From: Parcubacteria group bacterium
GTDB taxonomy: Bacteria > Patescibacteriota > Minisyncoccia > Phycocordibacterales > UBA2135
Assembly (NCBI GenBank): GCA_016180525.1
Contig: JACPBB010000001.1
Coordinates: 169,180-233,179, forward strand
Length of the DNA stretch: 64,000 nucleotides
Direction of reading: 5' to 3'
The translations under genes and the position numbers were made by a program. The notes under the pieces are model-generated. The model saw nothing but the letters and a program-made list of their open reading frames with translations. It was not told the origin of the DNA and did not search any database. Shown piece after piece: positions 22,202 to 29,775 of the stretch (its first letter is position 1; every line of letters begins with the position of its first letter).

Positions 22202-24244
22202 ATGGCCGACGAAAAACAGAAGCGTCTGTGCGATGAAGTTCGTATTGCGCTTCTTTCACGCATAGATTATTGCGGAGACGGATATCGCAAACGCCTCATG
22301 GAATGTGGATTTAATCTCGCAAAGCTGGAACAAGTCGCTTTCCTTGTGTTGGTGGGTGGGCTTGTCCACAATGAAGGTCTTAAGGAACGAATTCAGGAAG
22401 AGCTTGCGGAAGAGAAGGTGAAGCCAAAGAAAAAGCGACGCAGTCGCGCAGATGTCATTGACCGTGTTTTAAGTGAGGTCGCGGAAGAACTTGCAAAACA
22501 AATTCCAAGTATCACTCTACCCGGTACCGAAAAGAAAATTCGTCTGTATATCATGACCTCCCCAGCCTATGATGGAAAATATGGGGCAGCAATTGCCGAA
22601 AGACTCGCTGTTCTCCGCCCAGACGATATTCGCCACTGGGCAAAGGCAAGCGAGCATTTGCCACTTGAGCCGGCACCGCATGAAAAATTCAAAGAAATTG
22701 CCTGTCTCGTACCGAGGACAACTTCATTCCGTTCAAAATATGACTCCACTGCAGTAGACCGAGTTGTTGAAGACTATCTGAATACTGCGAAAAAGGCGTA
22801 CGCACCTGTCGTTATTGTCGGTTGCTTTAATGTAAATTTTCACAAGCCGGCAGGCGGTGAAAGCTCGATTCATATCATTGGACTTCCCGGATCAAGCCGT
22901 ATTGAAGAGAACCGCGCTTCAGAAAACCAAGTTGGTTTGACAATACTTAGAATCACTAATGACGGAAACCTGTTCGTAAAATCTCACAACTTCAATGACC
23001 TAGTGGTCAGAGAGCGTGAGTCAATCAATATTTCGCCGAAGTATAACAAGACAACACAGCGCGTGCTTGAACAGTTCAAGCACCGGACATGGTGGACGCT
23101 GGGTCTTCTTTCGGAAAAACTTGGCGTACCCCGCGACGAACTCAAGAAAACGCTTAACAGTATTGTAAAGCGACCGAGGCTCAATCCTCCGCTTAAATAT
23201 GACGAATCTTCGCAGCGATATTTTATTCCTCGTCCGTGGATCCAGAAAAATGTTACATATCCCTATCCGTGGCCGACGAAAGAATTTATTGAAGAGCGGT
23301 TTTTGTCTTTTGGCTGCTTGCACGCTCTGTGCCGACATACCGCGCACGAGTTCATGCTTGATGAAATGCCAAAACTTATGCTCAAATATAACATTCATCA
23401 CCTCATTGGTGGTGGAGACTTCATTGAAGGCCGTTCACACGGTCTTCCGGAAAATGGAGAATTGCTTTTTGGCGCCACGTATGACGCGCAAGAGAAGTTT
23501 GCCGCATGGCTTGTGGCAGAAGTCCTTCTCCGAGTCTTTAAAGAGCGTATTCAAAAATTGACGCAAACTGCGGACAAGAAACTGTTTACCGATGAAGCTG
23601 CCGTTCTTAACTTCATCAAAGCGACCCTTCCTGATTTTTGGTACATTCCTGGAAATCATGACGAATGGACTGAAAGAGTCGCGTTTGAAGCTCTGACGGT
23701 GTTCCGTTATGAACTGTTTCAACTCGTTCGTAGGGGTGTAACAGAGACGCTGAAAAACACAGGTCTTGTTGTACCGGCAATCCTTGAACAATTCATTGAA
23801 AGCACTATGGTGAAAATGAGCCCTCTGGACGCCGCTATGCATTCGTCAGGCGTTTCTCTGTCGCTGAACCATCTTCACATGGGCAGAACGCAGACAAAAA
23901 CGATTCGGAGTCAAGCGCTCTTGGGCGCAACGACTGCCGTTATCAACATTCACGCGAATTTTCACACCGCTCTTTCTATGTCTCGCTTTGACCCGAACAT
24001 TGGCCAGCGCGTCGTTCAGCAGATTGGAACACTCAAGCTTCGCTCAGGATTTGAAGACCGAAAAGGAAAAAAAGTTGACTTTGGAGTCGGATATCTCCGA
24101 GTCGGACTAGAGCAGCGTGGTAATGAAAAAGTTATCCTGATGCACGAGGTCGCGCTTTTCGGAGATCCGGCAAAATATCAGAGTATCGAAAATAGAGGTT
24201 TTATTGAATCTTTCAAAAAGAAAATTTTCGGAAAAAAAATCTAA
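22202..24244 (+). CDS. large hypothetical protein with C-terminal calcineurin-like metallophosphoesterase motifs (GD-x2-[DE]…GNHDE…H-x-N-F-H)
   Basis: 680 aa; …HHLIGGGDFIEG… about 65 aa …IPGNHDEW… then …INIHANFH…. The N-terminal ~400 aa have no recognisable family. Preceded by a TTGAGA-N18-TACAAT promoter-like sequence; followed by a strong terminator. Confidence 0.55.
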   Translation: MADEKQKRLCDEVRIALLSRIDYCGDGYRKRLMECGFNLAKLEQVAFLVLVGGLVHNEGLKERIQEELAEEKVKPKKKRRSRADVIDRVLSEVAEELAKQIPSITLPGTEKKIRLYIMTSPAYDGKYGAAIAERLAVLRPDDIRHWAKASEHLPLEPAPHEKFKEIACLVPRTTSFRSKYDSTAVDRVVEDYLNTAKKAYAPVVIVGCFNVNFHKPAGGESSIHIIGLPGSSRIEENRASENQVGLTILRITNDGNLFVKSHNFNDLVVRERESINISPKYNKTTQRVLEQFKHRTWWTLGLLSEKLGVPRDELKKTLNSIVKRPRLNPPLKYDESSQRYFIPRPWIQKNVTYPYPWPTKEFIEERFLSFGCLHALCRHTAHEFMLDEMPKLMLKYNIHHLIGGGDFIEGRSHGLPENGELLFGATYDAQEKFAAWLVAEVLLRVFKERIQKLTQTADKKLFTDEAAVLNFIKATLPDFWYIPGNHDEWTERVAFEALTVFRYELFQLVRRGVTETLKNTGLVVPAILEQFIESTMVKMSPLDAAMHSSGVSLSLNHLHMGRTQTKTIRSQALLGATTAVINIHANFHTALSMSRFDPNIGQRVVQQIGTLKLRSGFEDRKGKKVDFGVGYLRVGLEQRGNEKVILMHEVALFGDPAKYQSIENRGFIESFKKKIFGKKI

Positions 24245-24401: not shown

Positions 24402-25190
24402 ATGGCGACAAAATTCGCACTGCATAAAATAAAAGTAATAATGCCAGATGATACGGTGTTTACCTTCTGGTTTGACGGCAACGGAAAAATTACTGCAGGA
24501 AACGGAACATTTGATTCCCCCGTTCCAAATGCCTTCTCGCTCGTACAAGTCAAAGACTGTCCGTCGGCAACACCGACATGCACCAGCGTTTGCTATGTGC
24601 ACAACCTTGAAAAAGCGGAGGCTGAGGTGCACGGCAAATATGCCCACAACAGCGTCACCATTCGTAAGATTCTTCAGAATGCCATTTATCGGCAAGCAAC
24701 TGAATTTGAATTTGTTCATTGGATAAAGAAAAACAATATCCGAGAATTCAGATGGCACGTCTCCGGTGATGTCTTTTCAAAAGAATACGCAAAATTTGTT
24801 GTATCGGTGTGTAATTTAGCTCCGGATGTTTTATTTTGGATTTATACGCGCTCATTTAATTTTGTTGAAACACTGCAAGAAGCACCCAATTTGGTTGTAA
24901 ATCTCTCGGCAGACAGAGACAATTATAAAAAAGCACTTGAAATAAACAGAAAATACGGAGTCCGTATCTGCTATCTTTCTCTTGAAGGAGAGATTCCTAA
25001 GGATTTGCCAAAAGGGTCCGTCATTTTCCCAAACTACACGCTTCGCGGAAGAGATTTGCCCGTTCCTACAGAAGCTCCATTTTGGAAACAGCTTACGCTG
25101 AAACAAAAAAAGATGGTGTGCCCGCCGGATTTCTTCGGCCAAAGCGAAAAACTCCGCTGCGGCCCGTGCCGGAAGTGCATGGTTCATTAA
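24402..25190 (+). CDS. phage Gp37/Gp68 (DUF5131)-like Cys-cluster protein
   Basis: 262 aa; N-terminal C-x6-C-x3-C-Y (…DCPSATPTCTSVCYVHN…), then …WHVSGDVF… and …VLFWIYTRSFN…, resembling the DUF5131 layout W.NP..GC…S.GC..CYA … GDLF … W.ILTKRP. C-terminal CPPD…C-x2-C-x2-C. Assignment from memory of the family pattern. Confidence 0.45.
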   Translation: MATKFALHKIKVIMPDDTVFTFWFDGNGKITAGNGTFDSPVPNAFSLVQVKDCPSATPTCTSVCYVHNLEKAEAEVHGKYAHNSVTIRKILQNAIYRQATEFEFVHWIKKNNIREFRWHVSGDVFSKEYAKFVVSVCNLAPDVLFWIYTRSFNFVETLQEAPNLVVNLSADRDNYKKALEINRKYGVRICYLSLEGEIPKDLPKGSVIFPNYTLRGRDLPVPTEAPFWKQLTLKQKKMVCPPDFFGQSEKLRCGPCRKCMVH

Positions 25191-25273: not shown

Positions 25274-26152
25274 GTGTCTGAGACAATATCGCAAGAAAAA
25301 TTTCTTACATTAATGCGTTTGTGCTGCACAAAAGAGACAAGCGCGAGTCCCGATACGTGGACTCCTAAAAATCCCCTGTGGGGGCATTGTGCCGCTGTTT
25401 CCCTTGTCGCTCAAAACATGTTTGGAGGTACACTTCTGCGTGTCTCTCTTACAGATACCCCGTTTAAAGCTATGCGGTCACACTACTTCAATAAATTACC
25501 CGATGGAACCGTCATCGATTTTACCAAAGAACAGTTTGGGAAATTATATCCAAGTGGTTTAAAAACAAAGACACGAACCTGCGGAAGCATTCTTGAACAT
25601 GAAAGCACCAGAAACCGCTATAAAAAACTTGCTCTCCGTTTTGCCTATGAAATGACTCAAAATGTGCTCCTTTTGCACCCTTTATATGGGGCATGTTTTG
25701 AAGCCGCACTTGATTCCGGATGCCAAAAACTATGGGTTGGCTCCGTACTCGTGCATAATGGAGTTGTTGTCTCTTCGGGTAATAACCATCCTGTAGAAGA
25801 GCTCGCGCATGTCTGCAAACCAAAGTGTATTCGCTTCAATATTCAATCAAGAACTGAATCAATGATTGGTGCGTGTGGGCACGCGGAAGAATACGCCATG
25901 TGGGAGGCTATCCAAAAAGGAATCCCGCTTTCTGAGTGCGATATGTATGTCGCTATGGTCGGCACAGACGGATTGCCGCGGTTTAGAAGCGACCCTTCTG
26001 TTGGATATACTTGCCTACGATGCGCAACAGCAATGCGTTTGGCTGGTATCAAAAATGTATATATTGATATTGTTGACCATTGGGAAAAAATCAGTATTAA
26101 GGATGCACTACAAAGCGCATTGCAATATGCTCTTGGTGAAAAGAAACTATAA
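25274..26152 (+). CDS. two-domain protein: unknown N-terminal domain + C-terminal dCMP/cytidine-deaminase-like zinc-binding domain
   Basis: The C-terminal half reads …SGCQKLWVGSVLVHNGVVVSSGNN…ACGHAEEYAMWEAI…YTCLRCATAMRLAGIKNVYI…. These are the CDA-fold H-A-E and C-x2-C zinc motifs plus the dCMP-deaminase AGIK.V tail. The N-terminal ~140 aa (…NPLWGHCAAVSLVAQNMFGG…) are unassigned. Confidence 0.6.
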   Translation: MSETISQEKFLTLMRLCCTKETSASPDTWTPKNPLWGHCAAVSLVAQNMFGGTLLRVSLTDTPFKAMRSHYFNKLPDGTVIDFTKEQFGKLYPSGLKTKTRTCGSILEHESTRNRYKKLALRFAYEMTQNVLLLHPLYGACFEAALDSGCQKLWVGSVLVHNGVVVSSGNNHPVEELAHVCKPKCIRFNIQSRTESMIGACGHAEEYAMWEAIQKGIPLSECDMYVAMVGTDGLPRFRSDPSVGYTCLRCATAMRLAGIKNVYIDIVDHWEKISIKDALQSALQYALGEKKL

Positions 26153-26249
26153 GTAATATGTGTTAAAATTCCAGCGTTTGCTGGATTTTTTTGCAAAAAC
26201 ATTTTTTCCCTATATACTATTCACAGATTATTCAAACGAGGCACCAGAG

Positions 26250-27245
26250 ATGATACAGGACGATGTGTGTATTGACCACGAACGTATACAGGCTATTGCC
26301 CGAACTATTGCTTCCATTCCTGAGCATGGTGGAACATTAAATTTCCACAGCATTGAAACACCGCAAGGTGCACGAGTGCTTTCCGATATGTATCCAGACG
26401 TTGATGACGCTCATGCGATTGATTTCTTTTTCTTTGCCATTCTTCATGATCATGGATTCTGGTTTGGAGATGATGCGGGATATGTCAGCCCTCTGTATGG
26501 AACCATTCTTGGGAAAAACAAGGTAAAGGGTTCTGATTTATTGTGGAAGTCATTAAAACGATCGTTTGATAAAAACCCAACCATCGTAACCATAGAGCGC
26601 CTTTTAAAAATAACTCCGGAGGAATTTGCCGATGTGTTTTCAGATGATAACGGACCAATTCCGTTTCCCGACTGGGAGGCTCGGTATATGCTTACAAAAC
26701 AATACGCGCAGTGGTTTCTAGCCGCGCGCATAAAACCCAAAGACATGCTTTTAAAAGTACGCGCCACGCCCAAACCACTCTTGGAATTTAGAAATCTTAT
26801 GCGAGTTGTACCGGGCTATACAGATCCTTTCAATAAAAAAACACTACTCCTTGCTATGGTGCTTTCATTGCGCCCAGAAAAATTTTTATCCGTCACGGAT
26901 ACAGAGTCATGGGACCCAATTATTGATTACCACCTTATGCGTCTTGCGTTACGGATGGGAATAGTGGCTATTCCGAATTCTAACCCACTCTACAAAAGGC
27001 TGACAAAACGAAATTGGGTAAATGCGGATGAAGAATTATTTATACGACAAGAAGTATATCAGGCAATGAAGAAAGTATTGCAGTACTCACGTAAGCCGCT
27101 TGCGTTTGTAGATTATGCATTCTGGTCTGGAAGAAAATTTTGCCCAGAAATGACGGAACCGAATTGCAGAGAGTGTCCATTTCAGAGTGTGTGCGCAAAA
27201 AAAACTGAGTTATTTCAACCGATATTTAGAACGCTCAATTATTAA
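26250..27245 (+). CDS. HhH-GPD superfamily N-glycosylase-like protein with endonuclease-III-type [4Fe-4S] cluster loop and ~190-aa N-terminal extension (possible Qng1/DUF2419-like or divergent DNA glycosylase)
   Basis: Start taken at ATG 26250 (MIQDDVCIDHERIQ…); promoter-like ttgcaa…tatact lies inside the ORF-track 5' extension. HhH-like …VPGYTDPFNKKTLLLAMVL…. …IDYHLMRLALRMGIV… resembles the EndoIII VDTHIFRVCNR segment with the catalytic Asp. C-terminal C-x7-C-x2-C-x5-C (FCPEMTEPNCRECPFQSVC). Confidence 0.5.
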   Translation: MIQDDVCIDHERIQAIARTIASIPEHGGTLNFHSIETPQGARVLSDMYPDVDDAHAIDFFFFAILHDHGFWFGDDAGYVSPLYGTILGKNKVKGSDLLWKSLKRSFDKNPTIVTIERLLKITPEEFADVFSDDNGPIPFPDWEARYMLTKQYAQWFLAARIKPKDMLLKVRATPKPLLEFRNLMRVVPGYTDPFNKKTLLLAMVLSLRPEKFLSVTDTESWDPIIDYHLMRLALRMGIVAIPNSNPLYKRLTKRNWVNADEELFIRQEVYQAMKKVLQYSRKPLAFVDYAFWSGRKFCPEMTEPNCRECPFQSVCAKKTELFQPIFRTLNY

Positions 27246-27258
27246 AGCGAGATAAAAT

Positions 27259-27287
27259 AAAGCCCAACTGTTTTGGTTGGGTTTTTC
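27259..27287. terminator. Bidirectional terminator (AGCCCAAC-TGTTTTG-GTTGGG + TTTTT) between convergent genes
   Basis: Between the 27245 stop (+) and the 27300 stop (-). Confidence 0.65.
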
Positions 27288-27299
27288 TAAAAATTAAGA

Positions 27300-27671
27300 T
27301 TACTTTTCTGCCATATGCTTCATCACTAAAAAGAAGCTTTTGTCGGGTCCATTTTTTATTTCCACTTCATTCGCAACAACAACTCGCTTTCTAATGCCGA
27401 GCATTTCCGTAAGCATAAATACTCCTCCCATATCAAATTTTGAACCATAACTTTTCTCGTCATACCAAATATGCACCTCATCGGCATCTAAAATTGCCTG
27501 AAAATTTGTCCTACAGATATTCACTCCGCCCGTCGGGTCATCTTGTTCCGTATCCAGAGTCGGCCAGTGAACACGGTGTCCTTGTTTTTCAAGCTGCTTT
27601 ACGTACTTTGCAATTTTAGCGTTCGTTTTTTTACTTGCGTTCGTGACCGGACAAACAAGAAATATTTTCAT
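27300..27671 (-). CDS. nucleoside 2-deoxyribosyltransferase-like / DNPH1(Rcl)-like protein
   Basis: 123 aa; MKIFLVCPVT… Rossmann-like N-terminus typical of the family, and a …D…SYGSKFDMGGVFML… segment at the expected position. Family-level only. Confidence 0.45.
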   Translation of the reverse strand: MKIFLVCPVTNASKKTNAKIAKYVKQLEKQGHRVHWPTLDTEQDDPTGGVNICRTNFQAILDADEVHIWYDEKSYGSKFDMGGVFMLTEMLGIRKRVVVANEVEIKNGPDKSFFLVMKHMAEK

Positions 27672-28345
27672 GCGCTCATTCCTACCGAAAAGTACTTTTT
27701 CAATCGCTCCACCGTTTCAGACCAGAGTTTTCTATCAATTTTAGGGTCCATGTCGCGCCAATTAGCACGCTCGGGCCTACCAAGCGCTTCGGCAAGACGA
27801 GTACGGAAATATTGTGCCGGAACACCTTTCGGATCCCATATAATGTCAGTTTTTTGGTCAACACCGGGAGGCCTGGAGAGAAGATATCCATCTCCAATCT
27901 TTCCAACTCCTTCGGGAATTCCATTCGTTACAAAATTAAATTGCTCATATAAAGTTTCGGGAAAGTCCTGCAGCATTTTTGTAGTGAGGTCTACATGAGC
28001 GGGAACTATGTGTAAGTGCGCATGCTTCACTGTCTGTCCGACTATTCCATGTTCAAACAATATTACAGACCGTTCGCCAACAGTAGAACCATTATATGCT
28101 CCATATTCATCGTGAACCAAATCCTCTACGTACAACAACAAATGAGTTAATTTTACTTGCTCTTTTTCTGTAAGTAAATTCATACAGATTACATGACGTT
28201 TCGGGAATACAAGCACATGTCCACCGTCAGTAATCTGCCCCAGTGTCGCGATAACAAAAAATTCATTGGTTTCTGTAATAATACGCTCTTTAAATGTTTC
28301 GCGATTGCAGAACGGACAATCTTTTTCCATACATTTCTTCTCCAA
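27668..28345 (-). CDS. HIT-family nucleotide hydrolase/transferase
   Basis: Histidine triad HAHLHIVP; N-terminal CPFC; overlaps the downstream gene by 4 nt (operon). Confidence 0.75.
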   Translation of the reverse strand: MEKKCMEKDCPFCNRETFKERIITETNEFFVIATLGQITDGGHVLVFPKRHVICMNLLTEKEQVKLTHLLLYVEDLVHDEYGAYNGSTVGERSVILFEHGIVGQTVKHAHLHIVPAHVDLTTKMLQDFPETLYEQFNFVTNGIPEGVGKIGDGYLLSRPPGVDQKTDIIWDPKGVPAQYFRTRLAEALGRPERANWRDMDPKIDRKLWSETVERLKKYFSVGMSA

Positions 28346-28448: not shown

Positions 28449-29201
28449 GTGGATGTTTTTTTGACAGCAGTTTTAACAATCACCCTAATCCTGTTATCCT
28501 CTCCATGTCATGAATTAGGACACATATACGCAATGCGTAAGTTTAATATTCCCATTAAAAAAATTGGATGGAGTTTTGTTCGGGTTGAGCGGGAGGGGGA
28601 CATAGAAAAGCTTGATTTAAAAGACCAAATATACATCTCTGGCGCAGGGCCCTTGTCCAGTATAATCTTTGGGACGATACTTCTTACCATTGCGGGAATA
28701 CGAGTGAATCCTCTTGCAATAGGAGATTTTCAAATCAACTTGCTATTGTGGGCGCCCGTTGTAGCATTGACCATAATTATTTTCGCCCGTTGGTGTTGCC
28801 AATATATTATTCCTCTTGTGGGGCTCTTAGAAATAATTCTCTTGTCCGACTTTCTTTTTTGGCTTTTTACTCATTCGCTTAATGATATTATAGGTGAGCC
28901 AATATCAGCTTCTACTATAAGAATAACTGCACAGCAAACAGTAGAAAACGTGGGTATCGTGTTTACGGCGACGTTCATAGCCGGTTTCTGTTCTCTATTT
29001 TCGGGTGCATTGAATATGTTGCCATTTTACCCAATAGACGGTGGACGCATCGTTCGAGCATATATAAAGACATTCAGTGTTAGTATTGCCGACTGGTTCG
29101 CAATTGTAGGATACTTGCTATACATTGTAATTCGCTTGGTATTGGCAATAGGTTTTGTCGTGTTTCTTTTGTCATCAGATTTAGAAGCTTTTATGAAGTA
29201 A
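28449..29201 (+). CDS. site-2 protease family (M50) membrane metalloprotease
   Basis: HELGH zinc motif at the N-terminus and conserved …LNMLPFYPIDGGRIVRA… (the LDG motif) in a polytopic membrane protein. Confidence 0.8.
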   Translation: MDVFLTAVLTITLILLSSPCHELGHIYAMRKFNIPIKKIGWSFVRVEREGDIEKLDLKDQIYISGAGPLSSIIFGTILLTIAGIRVNPLAIGDFQINLLLWAPVVALTIIIFARWCCQYIIPLVGLLEIILLSDFLFWLFTHSLNDIIGEPISASTIRITAQQTVENVGIVFTATFIAGFCSLFSGALNMLPFYPIDGGRIVRAYIKTFSVSIADWFAIVGYLLYIVIRLVLAIGFVVFLLSSDLEAFMK

Positions 29202-29430: not shown

Positions 29431-29616
29431 TTATTTTCTGCTTTTTTTATTGCGAGGAGGTCCTCCTACAACCCCAAGAGTCGCGAGACCAAGAAGAAAA
29501 TCAAGCCCCTCACCAGCGCCACCGCTACCAGGAGATCCCCCGCCAGATTTACTCTTTTTCTTTTTTTTCTCCGACTTATTGCCGGAAGAGAATGATTCAA
29601 ATTTAGGCATATATTT
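29431..29616. repeat. Direct repeat A, copy 1 (conserved ends ttattttctgcttttttattgcgAggagg … ttgccggaagagaatgattcaaatttaggCatatat)
   Basis: The 30-nt left block and 37-nt right block are near-identical to those at 31671-31700 and 31856-31894. The middle is diverged. The minus-strand ORFs over the two copies (29431..29757 and 31650..31880) share no protein similarity, so the element is probably non-coding. Confidence 0.75.
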
Positions 29617-29775
29617 ATAATATTGATAATACTCTCTTTTGTTTAAAAAAACAAGAATACATCTTGTGCGGCAAAATACGGCATTATTTCTCAAAAAACG
29701 ACTCCTCTCCAACCCAAAAAGCGAGTACTGATTATAAGAAAAAGGCTCGTATTTCATATACGAGCCGTTATAATT

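What the first reader, a model, noticed from the sequence alone, without database searches (positions are those of the whole stretch)
27300..28345. Operon of a deoxyribosyltransferase/DNPH1-like protein and a HIT hydrolase
The two genes overlap by 4 nt. Both families cleave or transfer at nucleotide phosphate/glycosidic positions (DNPH1 hydrolyses dNMP N-glycosidic bonds; HIT enzymes hydrolyse NMP-adducts/Ap4A). The deoxyribosyltransferase-like fold is also the SLOG/LOG fold used in antiviral signalling proteins. They are convergent with the deaminase/glycosylase block.
Basis: partly seen in the sequence, partly recalled or inferred. Interest (0 to 1): 0.5.

Follow-up and report, generated by a model that had tools for sequence, protein, structure and literature searches.

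The report
Divergent deoxyribosyltransferase-fold gene plus CwfJ-like HIT
Two overlapping genes of an uncultured Parcubacteria genome encode a remodelled member of the deoxyribosyltransferase/DNPH1 enzyme superfamily and a two-domain histidine-triad nucleotide hydrolase shaped like the eukaryotic CWF19/Drn1 module. Both are tied by gene order and gene fusions to neighbouring cytosine-nucleotide and phosphoesterase genes, which suggests nucleotide salvage or clean-up rather than antiviral signalling.

Summary
Two minus-strand genes, 27300-27671 (123 aa, "famA") and 27668-28330 (220 aa HIT; the ORF extends to TTG 28345), overlap by ATGA and end at a hairpin terminator, convergent with the plus-strand block.

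The operon itself is poorly conserved: a HIT gene is adjacent in 4 of 37 distinct famA loci. Both genes nevertheless recur, rearranged, with the neighbouring block (metallophosphoesterase p680, GP88, YunG–dCMP deaminase). Elsewhere famA is fused to dCMP deaminase, YunG or ASCH, and sits beside NUDIX, MazG and HD genes.

Best reading is a nucleotide (probably cytosine-derived NMP/dNMP) salvage or sanitation module; the chemistry is inferred. I found no support for a defence role. Verdict: new variant of known kinds, moderate interest.

The parts
27300..27671 (-). famA: a 123-aa protein of an uncharacterised CPR-wide branch of the nucleoside 2-deoxyribosyltransferase/DNPH1 superfamily. Its motif is S74-x-G-S-x-F-D80-x-G, with Phe4 and Asn56 in place of the catalytic Tyr and Asp.
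27668..28330 (-). HIT/CwfJ-like gene encoding 220 aa. The N-terminal Fhit-like histidine-triad domain has C5-x-x-C8 and H103-A-H105-L-H107. A conserved C-terminal domain (about residues 115-215) follows. The ORF is open up to TTG 28345.
27668..27671 (-). ATGA overlap: the stop codon of the HIT gene and the start codon of famA share these 4 bases.
   Evidence: Read directly from the sequence.
27679..27683 (-). Shine-Dalgarno-like AGGAA, 7 nt upstream of the famA ATG and inside the HIT coding sequence.
   Evidence: Read directly from the sequence.
28340..28343 (-). Shine-Dalgarno-like GGAG, 9 nt upstream of ATG 28330, the probable true start of the HIT gene.
   Evidence: Sequence. The 220-aa NCBI model P0069 matches at 100%.
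27263..27281 (-). Terminator-like hairpin (CCCAAC...GTTGGG followed by a T-run) between the two convergent transcription units.
   Evidence: Consensus scan and sequence.
22202..24244 (+). p680: a CPR-specific 680-aa protein with an N-terminal domain, a winged-helix-like segment and a C-terminal metallophosphoesterase domain. Invariant residues are C372-x-H374, G405-D406, G484-N485-H486, H557 and N586-x-H588. It is genomically linked to both the HIT gene and famA.
   Evidence: 80 homologues. Invariant residues. 12 of 33 members hit PF00149. wHTH-like hits. A homologue lies directly upstream of a famB-type HIT in L046 and directly upstream of famA in L004.
24402..25190 (+). GP88-family (PF17338) Cys-rich protein. 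It lies next to famA in two other genomes.
   Evidence: Pfam E 1.8e-33. L004 and L025 neighbourhoods. L004/L016 contig join.
25274..26152 (+). Fusion of a YunG domain with a dCMP/cytidine deaminase; the HAE and C-x-x-C zinc motifs are present.
   Evidence: Pfam YunG 73.6 bits and dCMP_cyt_deam_1 37.9 bits. The orthologue is directly convergent with HIT→famA in L011. famA is fused to YunG (P0191) and to dCMP deaminase (P0209, P0335) in other organisms.
26160..27245 (+). 361-aa protein with a weak queuosine-salvage (Qng1/DUF2419) match and a C-terminal C-x7-C-x2-C-x5-C cluster. It is the last gene of the plus-strand block, convergent with famA.
   Evidence: Pfam PF10343 E 0.0027, 17.7 bits, below the cutoff of 25. 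Cys motif read from the translation.

Best explanation
The two genes are co-transcribed members of a loosely organised nucleotide salvage or sanitation module in a Parcubacteria (CPR) bacterium. CPR organisms must live on scavenged nucleic-acid breakdown products.

Shown. The upstream gene encodes a Fhit-type histidine-triad enzyme with an intact triad. By analogy with Fhit, H105 is the expected nucleotidyl-accepting histidine. It also has a second CwfJ_C_2-like domain. The downstream gene, famA, is a true homologue of nucleoside 2-deoxyribosyltransferases. It keeps the Ser that binds the 5'-phosphate in DNPH1/MilB-type nucleotide N-glycosidases. The nucleophile is an invariant Asp instead of Glu, and the Tyr and general-acid Asp are replaced by Phe and Asn. 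Both genes recur, in changing order, with a metallophosphoesterase (p680), a GP88 protein and a YunG–dCMP deaminase. In other organisms famA is fused to dCMP deaminase, YunG or ASCH, and neighbours NUDIX, MazG-like and HD hydrolases.

Inferred. Phosphoesterase and HIT steps release nucleoside 5'-monophosphates from nucleotide conjugates or oligonucleotide ends. Deaminase-type enzymes convert cytosine-derived (possibly modified) nucleotides. famA binds a (d)NMP through Ser74 and the glycine loop and acts on its glycosidic bond with Asp80, a DNPH1/MilB-like hydrolysis. Loss of the general acid suggests either a substrate with a good leaving group or altered chemistry.
For: - famA active-site mapping: F4↔Tyr, N56↔Asp, S74↔Asp (Ser98 in DNPH1), D80↔Glu (DNPH1 residues from PMC10603095). 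Conservation is D80 218/218, S74 215/218, N56 202/218, F4 195/218.
- HIT: Pfam hits above cutoff, invariant triad, CWF19-like two-domain fold.
- Gene linkage: L011 has HIT→famA convergent with YunG-deaminase. MAG CAYZKP01 has TruB|p680|famA|GP88|PF06189-like|←HIT after joining two abutting contigs. L046 has p680→HIT. L025 has famA next to GP88. L001-3 and L029 have NUDIX→famA→a different HIT.
- Fusions: famA+YunG, famA+ASCH, famA+dCMP deaminase, DUF1937/DUF4406+famA.
- Neighbours: NUDIX, MazG-like, HD_4, ASCH, DUF4406.
- ASCH proteins of the YqfB type hydrolyse N4-acylcytosine compounds (PMC6972931). DNPH1 is a nucleotide-pool sanitiser (PMC10603095).
Against: - No activity is shown. All three canonical catalytic residues of NDT/DNPH1 are substituted, so glycosidase activity is not assured.
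- The HIT–famA operon is absent from most famA loci (33 of 37). Most famB HIT genes examined stand alone.
- The commonest famA neighbour is SecA (14 loci), which says nothing about function.
- The Qng1-like assignment of the adjacent gene is below threshold.
- The substrate class (cytosine-derived, deoxy or ribo) rests only on fusion and neighbour identity.
Confidence: 0.4

Rival explanations
1. famA is a non-catalytic nucleotide-binding module of the NDT/SLOG/TIR fold. It would sense an NMP or dNMP and regulate partner enzymes, for example as an allosteric domain for dCMP deaminase-type enzymes or the HIT enzyme, rather than cleaving a glycosidic bond.
Against: A carboxylate sits at the nucleophile position in 218 of 218 sequences, and the S-x-G-x-x-x-D-x-G loop is nearly invariant. 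That pattern is more typical of catalysis. In most genomes famA is a free-standing 120-130-aa protein with no fixed partner.
Confidence: 0.25
2. The module works on nucleic-acid ends or branches rather than on free nucleotides. A CwfJ-type HIT would cooperate with the Cys-type metallophosphoesterase p680, in the way Drn1/CWF19L1 cooperates with Dbr1, or as an aprataxin-like de-adenylylase with a phosphatase. famA and the deaminase and glycosylase-like proteins would then handle damaged or modified residues.
For: - The HIT protein matches CWF19L1/L2/Cwf19 over both domains.
- A p680 homologue is adjacent to the HIT in L046 and lies in the same cluster in two other genomes.
- p680 has an invariant Cys in metallophosphoesterase motif I, a feature described as a Dbr1 hallmark (PMC4176325).
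- Drn1 combines a Dbr1-like domain with CwfJ domains (PMC4105757).
- p680 has a wHTH-like segment.
- DNA glycosylase genes (AAG, UDG) lie near the cluster in L046 and L016.
Against: hhalign of the p680 family against E. histolytica Dbr1 finds only the GNH motif (probability 0.7%). CwfJ_C_2 is not detectable by sequence. p680 was not modelled. Other p680 and HIT homologues lie in unrelated housekeeping contexts. famA fusions point to free-nucleotide enzymes.
Confidence: 0.15
3. The adjacency is incidental. These would be two unrelated housekeeping genes packed together in a compact genome, with the ATGA overlap being ordinary gene packing.
For: 33 of 37 distinct famA loci have no adjacent HIT gene. 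Four of the seven famB HIT loci examined lack both famA and p680 (L014, L015, L047, L048). 4-nt overlaps are common in bacteria (general knowledge).
Against: HIT genes are adjacent to famA in two phylogenetically separate arrangements with different gene order and different HIT subfamilies (window/L011 versus L001-3/L029). My own assumption is about 2 HIT genes per 800-gene genome and two neighbour slots, giving about 0.19 expected adjacencies in 37 loci; the Poisson P for ≥2 independent events is about 0.015. The same gene set reappears rearranged in MAG CAYZKP01.
Confidence: 0.1
4. It is an antiviral signalling or defence pair: a TIR/SLOG-like protein that makes or senses a nucleotide signal, plus a HIT effector or signal-degrading enzyme (Thoeris-like).
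Against: - famA has no PADLOC hit.
- Sequence homology is to NDTs, not TIRs.
- The Glu catalytic in TIR domains (structurally equivalent to the NDT nucleophile, from my own knowledge) is Asp here.
- famA is highly conserved (50-70% identity) across many CPR lineages and syntenic with SecA, H+-PPase/Pth and RecA-type housekeeping genes, not in variable islands.
- No close homologues were found in 2.9 million viral contigs.
Confidence: 0.05

Closest known systems
Nucleoside 2-deoxyribosyltransferases (PF05014; e.g. Chroococcidiopsis thermalis NDT 8pqp/8rh3, Bacillus psychrosaccharolyticus NDT 6evs)
   Different: Tyr→Phe4, general-acid Asp→Asn56, nucleophile Glu→Asp80, and the 5'-OH-binding Asp→Ser74. 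famA is shorter (123 aa against 135-165). The window protein is below the Pfam threshold.
DNPH1/Rcl and MilB/BcmB-type nucleotide N-glycosidases (dNMP, hmdUMP, CMP/hmCMP hydrolases)
   Different: The catalytic triad Y24/D80/E104 of DNPH1 is F4/N56/D80 here. Sequence similarity to DNPH1 is not significant on its own (E about 1). No activity is known.
Fhit/Hint-type HIT hydrolases
   Same: The HIT domain passes Pfam thresholds. The motif GQTVKHAHLHIVP is close to that of Fhit, with 24-26% identity in Foldseek alignments to Fhit. A CxxC zinc-type motif is present.
   Different: It carries an extra, highly conserved C-terminal domain of about 100 aa that single-domain HITs lack.
CwfJ C-terminal module of eukaryotic CWF19L1/Drn1, CWF19L2 and S. 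pombe Cwf19
   Different: It is bacterial, free-standing and 220 aa long. The C-terminal domain is not recognised by PF04676 or by any PDB sequence. There is no spliceosome context. About 14-16% identity.
TIR / SLOG / LOG domains
   Different: No significant sequence match. The context is housekeeping rather than defence.

Membership tests
Nucleoside 2-deoxyribosyltransferase superfamily (PF05014) | Three-layer α/β NDT fold | tested here: met
Nucleoside 2-deoxyribosyltransferase superfamily (PF05014) | Sequence match to the family model above the curated threshold | tested here: not met
   The window protein scores 16.2 bits against a gathering score of 28.8. Homology is still supported transitively. 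Relatives with E about 1e-25 to the famA profile pass the threshold (41.6, 37.1 and 33.1 bits), and the famA profile hits solved NDTs at E 2.9e-6.
Nucleoside 2-deoxyribosyltransferase / DNPH1 / MilB enzymes | Catalytic Glu nucleophile in the G-[ST]-x-x-E-x-G loop | tested here: not met
   The position is Asp80 in 218 of 218 family sequences. It aligns to the NDT Glu and to DNPH1 E104.
Nucleoside 2-deoxyribosyltransferase / DNPH1 / MilB enzymes | Catalytic Tyr (β1) and general-acid Asp (α3) | tested here: not met
   Phe4 (195 F and 17 Y of 218) aligns to the NDT Tyr. Asn56 (202 N, 13 H and 1 D of 218) aligns to the NDT Asp and to DNPH1 D80.
DNPH1/MilB-type nucleotide (5'-phosphate) N-glycosidases | Ser in place of the NDT 5'-OH-binding Asp, six residues before the nucleophile; this Ser binds the phosphate | tested here: met
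   Ser74 is present in 215 of 218 sequences. It aligns to DNPH1 S98 (role of the residue from PMC10603095) and to the Asp of C. thermalis NDT.
DNPH1/MilB-type nucleotide N-glycosidases | Hydrolysis of the N-glycosidic bond of a (d)NMP | not testable with these tools
   Needs an enzyme assay.
HIT superfamily (PF01230) | H-φ-H-φ-H-φ-φ motif and a family model match above threshold | tested here: met
   H103-A-H105-L-H107-I-V is invariant in 41 sequences. PF01230 scores 25.8 against 21.5, and PF11969 scores 30.4 against 24.
HIT superfamily (PF01230) | HIT α/β fold | tested here: met
CwfJ C-terminal module (PF04677 + PF04676; CWF19L1/L2, Drn1) | Two-domain fold: a HIT-like C_1 followed by C_2 | tested here: met
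CwfJ C-terminal module (PF04677 + PF04676) | Sequence match to CwfJ_C_1 | tested here: inconclusive
   The window protein scores 19.6-20.5 bits against a cutoff of 21. 23 of 41 family members match at E<1, best 3.6e-7.
CwfJ C-terminal module (PF04677 + PF04676) | Sequence match to CwfJ_C_2 | tested here: not met
   Only 1 of 41 members matches, at E 0.11. The C-terminal-domain profile A4 finds no CWF19 chain in the PDB.
Dbr1-type metallophosphoesterase (asked only of the neighbouring p680) | MPE motifs with Cys replacing the first Asp of motif I; a lariat-recognition loop; a Dbr1 C-terminal domain | tested here: inconclusive
   C372-x-H374 is invariant and the other MPE motifs are present. 12 of 33 members hit PF00149. 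hhalign against E. histolytica Dbr1 aligns only the GNH motif.
TIR/SLOG-based defence systems (e.g. Thoeris) | Match to defence-system models, and a defence-island or variable context | tested here: not met
   famA has no PADLOC hit, and the HIT gives only a generic 23-bit ThsC match. Synteny is with housekeeping genes. No close viral homologues were found.

The most novel reading that the evidence does not exclude
The pair would belong to a CPR-specific four-part module: the Cys-type metallophosphoesterase p680, the GP88 Cys-rich protein, the CwfJ-type two-domain HIT, and famA. In this reading the HIT/p680 couple is a prokaryotic counterpart of the eukaryotic Drn1(CWF19L1)–Dbr1 partnership. 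It would act on unusual phosphodiester linkages, such as 2'-5' branched or adenylylated nucleic-acid ends. famA, an NDT-fold protein with a re-invented active site (Phe/Asn/Asp plus a phosphate-binding Ser), would carry out a new reaction on the released, possibly modified, nucleotide.
Probability: 0.1. Interest if true: 0.8.

Novelty: new variant of a known kind. Interest (0 to 1): 0.5.

Why it matters
CPR/Patescibacteria cannot make nucleotides and depend on scavenging, yet the enzymes involved are poorly known.

- famA defines a large family (about 900 clusters at 50% identity) with no Pfam model of its own. It is a clear homologue of deoxyribosyltransferases in which every classical catalytic residue has changed while a DNPH1-like phosphate site is kept. 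That means either a new catalytic solution for nucleotide glycosidic-bond chemistry or a new nucleotide-sensing domain.
- Its repeated fusion to dCMP deaminase, YunG and ASCH gives a concrete, testable substrate hypothesis: cytosine-derived, possibly modified, nucleotides.
- The HIT partner shows that the CwfJ two-domain architecture, known from spliceosome-associated eukaryotic proteins of unclear biochemistry, exists in bacteria with an intact histidine triad, next to a metallophosphoesterase. A tractable bacterial homologue could help establish what CwfJ domains do.

Tried and rejected
- A single-sequence search and a narrow-profile search of the PDB with famA found nothing. Only the broadened profile A5 reached NDTs.
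- hhalign of famA against human DNPH1 was not significant (probability 0.17%), although the gap-free alignment agrees with the NDT mapping.
- PHROGs and NCBIfam gave nothing for famA. PADLOC gave only a generic HIT match.
- A riboswitch or other RNA element upstream of the operon was rejected. Rfam gives no hit with E<0.2, and the leader folds no better than shuffles (z +1.16).
- A phage origin was rejected. No famA relatives appear in the viral contigs, and only generic HIT-domain matches (26-32% identity, N-terminal domain only) appear for the HIT.
- The N-terminal CX3CX2C domain fused to famA in P0280 is not detectably a GP88 domain (BLASTP E 0.22).
- Assigning p680 to Dbr1 by profile comparison failed. 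A profile search of the PDB with p680 found only wHTH-like segments.
- Sequence detection of CwfJ_C_2 failed.
- The afdb50 fold library was unavailable.
- Literature searches for PF17338, PF24585, 'CwfJ + histidine triad' and 'Patescibacteria + deoxyribosyltransferase' found no prior description. The 'YunG' search returned only author names.
Full report
**Observation.** They share the four bases ATGA. The HIT gene most probably starts at ATG 28330 (220 aa). That start has a GGAG 9 nt upstream, equals the NCBI protein model (P0069, 220 aa, 100% identity and coverage) and fits the N-termini of homologues. An AGGAA precedes the famA start by 7 nt. A hairpin plus T-run (27281-27263) follows the famA stop and sits between the two convergent units. 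No Rfam element and no unusually stable leader structure precede the operon. The window comes from a Parcubacteria-group (CPR/Patescibacteria) MAG (names attached to P0001 and P0069).

**The 123-aa protein (famA).**
- Homologues: it has 68 close homologues (50-70% identity), all from CPR metagenomes and none with a Pfam domain. A profile search of 1.84 billion cluster representatives finds 903 clusters at E≤1e-3 and 711 at E≤1e-10.
- Pfam: the window protein scores only 16.2 bits on PF05014, against a cutoff of 28.8.
- Homology: this goes beyond fold resemblance. Several relatives that match the famA profile at about 1e-25 pass the PF05014 threshold (P0329 41.6, P0219 37.1, P0332 33.1 bits). 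A broadened family profile (A5) hits solved Chroococcidiopsis NDT chains at E 2.9e-6 to 5.6e-5 over about 95 residues. Weaker hits are a CMP N-glycosidase (0.07), T. brucei NDT (0.1) and DNPH1 (about 1).

**Active site of famA.** The alignment to NDT, a gap-free though non-significant hhalign alignment to verified human DNPH1 and a short match to purine deoxyribosyltransferase all agree on the following mapping.
- Phe4 takes the place of the catalytic Tyr (DNPH1 Y24).
- Asn56 takes the place of the general-acid Asp (DNPH1 D80).
- Asp80 takes the place of the Glu nucleophile (DNPH1 E104).
- Ser74 takes the place of the NDT 5'-OH-binding Asp. That position is Ser98, a phosphate ligand, in DNPH1 (residue roles from PMC10603095).

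The best-scoring PDB chain (8pqp) differs from the other NDT chains by carrying Asn where they have the general-acid Asp; it is presumably a D→N mutant, and it matches the family's Asn56. Over 218 family sequences the counts are Asp80 218/218, Ser74 215, Gly76 215, Gly82 216, Asn56 202 (13 His, 1 Asp) and Phe4 195 (17 Tyr). famA is thus an NDT homologue with a DNPH1/MilB-like phosphate site but a remodelled catalytic apparatus. Membership in the enzyme families as currently defined fails on the catalytic triad.

**The HIT protein (famB).**
- Sequence: PF01230 and PF11969 are above threshold and CwfJ_C_1 is just below (20.5 vs 21 bits). The 226 homologues share C5-x-x-C8, H46, E93-H94-G95 and the triad H103-A-H105-L-H107. 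They also share a strongly conserved C-terminal region (PYLLW…QYLR…GRPERANWR…D…LWSETV) with no Pfam match.
- Pfam across the family: 23 of 41 members match CwfJ_C_1 (best E 3.6e-7), but CwfJ_C_2 is not detectable by sequence.
- Conclusion: the protein is a bacterial, catalytically intact-looking version of the two-domain CwfJ module. Its conserved Cys/His pattern is of the kind reported for Drn1 (CxxC plus His residues, PMC4105757). The active-site segment GQTVKHAHLHIVP is Fhit-like (24-26% identity to Fhit in Foldseek alignments).

**Is the pair conserved?** Only partly. I collected 37 distinct famA loci at <95% identity. A HIT gene is adjacent in four.
- The window and L011 (its 70%-identical relative) have HIT→famA with a famB-type HIT.
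- L001-3 and L029 have NUDIX→famA→HIT. There the order is reversed and the HIT shares only the N-terminal domain with famB.

These are two independent arrangements. My own rough assumption is 2 HIT genes per 800 genes and two neighbour slots, which gives 0.19 expected adjacencies in 37 loci; the Poisson P for ≥2 events is about 0.015. The most frequent famA neighbour is SecA, upstream in 14 loci. Small nucleotide-hydrolase genes are often inserted between SecA and famA: NUDIX, MazG-like, HD_4 and ASCH. A DUF4406 gene lies convergent in L008. Other loci place famA by H+-PPase/Pth or RecA-type genes. Of seven famB HIT loci examined, four lack both famA and p680.

**Link to the plus-strand block.**
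- In L011 the HIT→famA pair is directly convergent with the YunG–dCMP deaminase orthologue.
- In L025 famA is convergent with GP88.
- In MAG CAYZKP01 two contigs abut inside GP88, with a 9-nt overlap and a continuous reading frame. Joined, they give TruB(-) | p680 homologue | famA | GP88 | PF06189-like protein | ←famB HIT. This is the same gene set as the window, with famA moved into the block.
- In L046 a p680 homologue is followed directly by a famB HIT.
- Domain fusions in the wider famA family point the same way: famA+YunG (P0191), famA+dCMP deaminase (P0209, P0335), famA+ASCH (P0200) and DUF1937/DUF4406+famA (P0310).
- ASCH proteins of the YqfB type hydrolyse N4-acylcytosine compounds (PMC6972931). 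The recurrent partners are therefore enzymes of cytosine-type nucleotides and NTP/NMP hydrolases.

**p680.** This is a CPR-only family. Its C-terminal half carries metallophosphoesterase motifs with an invariant Cys in place of the first Asp (C372-x-H374; GD 405-406; GNH 484-486; H557; N586-x-H588). 12 of 33 members hit PF00149, and a central segment resembles winged-helix domains. A Cys at that position is described as a hallmark of Dbr1 (PMC4176325), and Drn1/CWF19L1 combines a Dbr1-like domain with CwfJ domains (PMC4105757). The parallel is intriguing. However, profile comparison with E. histolytica Dbr1 (sequence verified) aligns only the GNH motif. I treat this as a lead, not a result.

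**Mechanism.**
- Shown: the folds, the homologies, the residue substitutions, the gene linkages and the fusions.
- Inferred: the module processes nucleotides from scavenged nucleic acids. HIT and phosphoesterase steps would yield 5'-monophosphates. Deaminase/ASCH/YunG-type enzymes would convert cytosine-derived, possibly modified, nucleotides. famA would bind a (d)NMP through Ser74 and the glycine loop and use Asp80 on the glycosidic bond in a DNPH1/MilB-like reaction.
- The missing general acid suggests a good leaving group or altered chemistry. It equally leaves room for a non-catalytic, nucleotide-sensing role, which is the main rival.
- A nucleic-acid end- or branch-processing reading centred on CwfJ-HIT plus p680 is possible but weakly tested.
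- Chance adjacency is unlikely given the rearranged recurrences.
- A defence or antiviral-signalling role has no support.

**Novelty and verdict.** Both proteins belong to known superfamilies, and neither subfamily appears in the literature I could search. famA is a new variant of the NDT/DNPH1 kind. The HIT is a bacterial variant of the CwfJ module. Interest is moderate (0.5). It would rise if famA shows new chemistry, or if the CwfJ-HIT/p680 couple proves functionally analogous to Drn1–Dbr1.

Noticed in passing
window 22202-24244 (+): A CPR-specific 680-aa protein (p680) with a C-terminal metallophosphoesterase domain. Motif I has an invariant Cys instead of Asp (C372-x-H374), a feature otherwise described as a Dbr1 hallmark. 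It also has a central winged-helix-like segment (~279-320). Homologues sit directly upstream of a CwfJ-like HIT (L046) and of famA (L004).
   Followed up: partly
window 24402-25190 (+); L004 6303-6590; L025 392-1279; L016 7712-8245: A GP88-family (PF17338, E 1.8e-33) Cys-rich protein (CPSATPTCTSVCY…CGPCRKC) of unknown function. It lies next to famA in two other genomes, and I found no literature on the family.
   Followed up: partly
window 25274-26152 (+): A fusion of a YunG domain (PF24585, motif WGHCAAV) with a dCMP/cytidine deaminase that keeps its HAE and CxxC motifs. In other organisms YunG and dCMP deaminase are each found fused to famA (P0191, P0209, P0335).
   Followed up: partly
window 26160-27245 (+): A 361-aa protein with only a sub-threshold queuosine-salvage (Qng1/DUF2419) match (E 0.0027). 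It has a C-terminal C-x7-C-x2-C-x5-C cluster reminiscent of the Fe-S loop of HhH glycosylases. The 'glycosylase' label is not established.
   Followed up: no
L004 (CAYZKP010000041.1) and L016 (CAYZKP010000026.1): Two contigs of one MAG abut inside the GP88 gene, with a 9-nt overlap (GTGACCATT) and a continuous reading frame. Joined, they give TruB|p680|famA|GP88|PF06189-like|←HIT.
   Followed up: yes
protein P0280 (381 aa): A famA domain fused behind a ~240-aa domain carrying a canonical radical-SAM-type CX3CX2C motif (CPLHCPDC). That domain has no Pfam hit and is not detectably related to GP88.
   Followed up: partly
L001 8377-9078; L029 ~1958-2731: A second HIT subfamily (233-257 aa) lies immediately downstream of famA. 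It shares only the N-terminal HIT domain with the window's HIT and has a different, unassigned C-terminal ~125 aa.
   Followed up: partly
L015, L048, L049, L050: p680 and famB-HIT homologues recur near the same housekeeping landmarks in different genomes: IMPDH, a PCMT-like methyltransferase, YceG and the RpoA-L17-L13-S9 operon. This hints at an older shared neighbourhood.
   Followed up: no
window 29522-29660 (-): A sub-threshold Rfam match to the lysM-TM7 RNA motif (24.5 bits vs gathering 61.5, E 0.47) in the region of a small Gly/Lys-rich ORF (29431-29757). Probably chance.
   Followed up: no
window 28449-29201 (+): A site-2-protease-like M50 peptidase (PF02163, E 2e-16) is divergently transcribed from the HIT gene across a 118-nt intergenic region. 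I saw no link to the pair.
   Followed up: no
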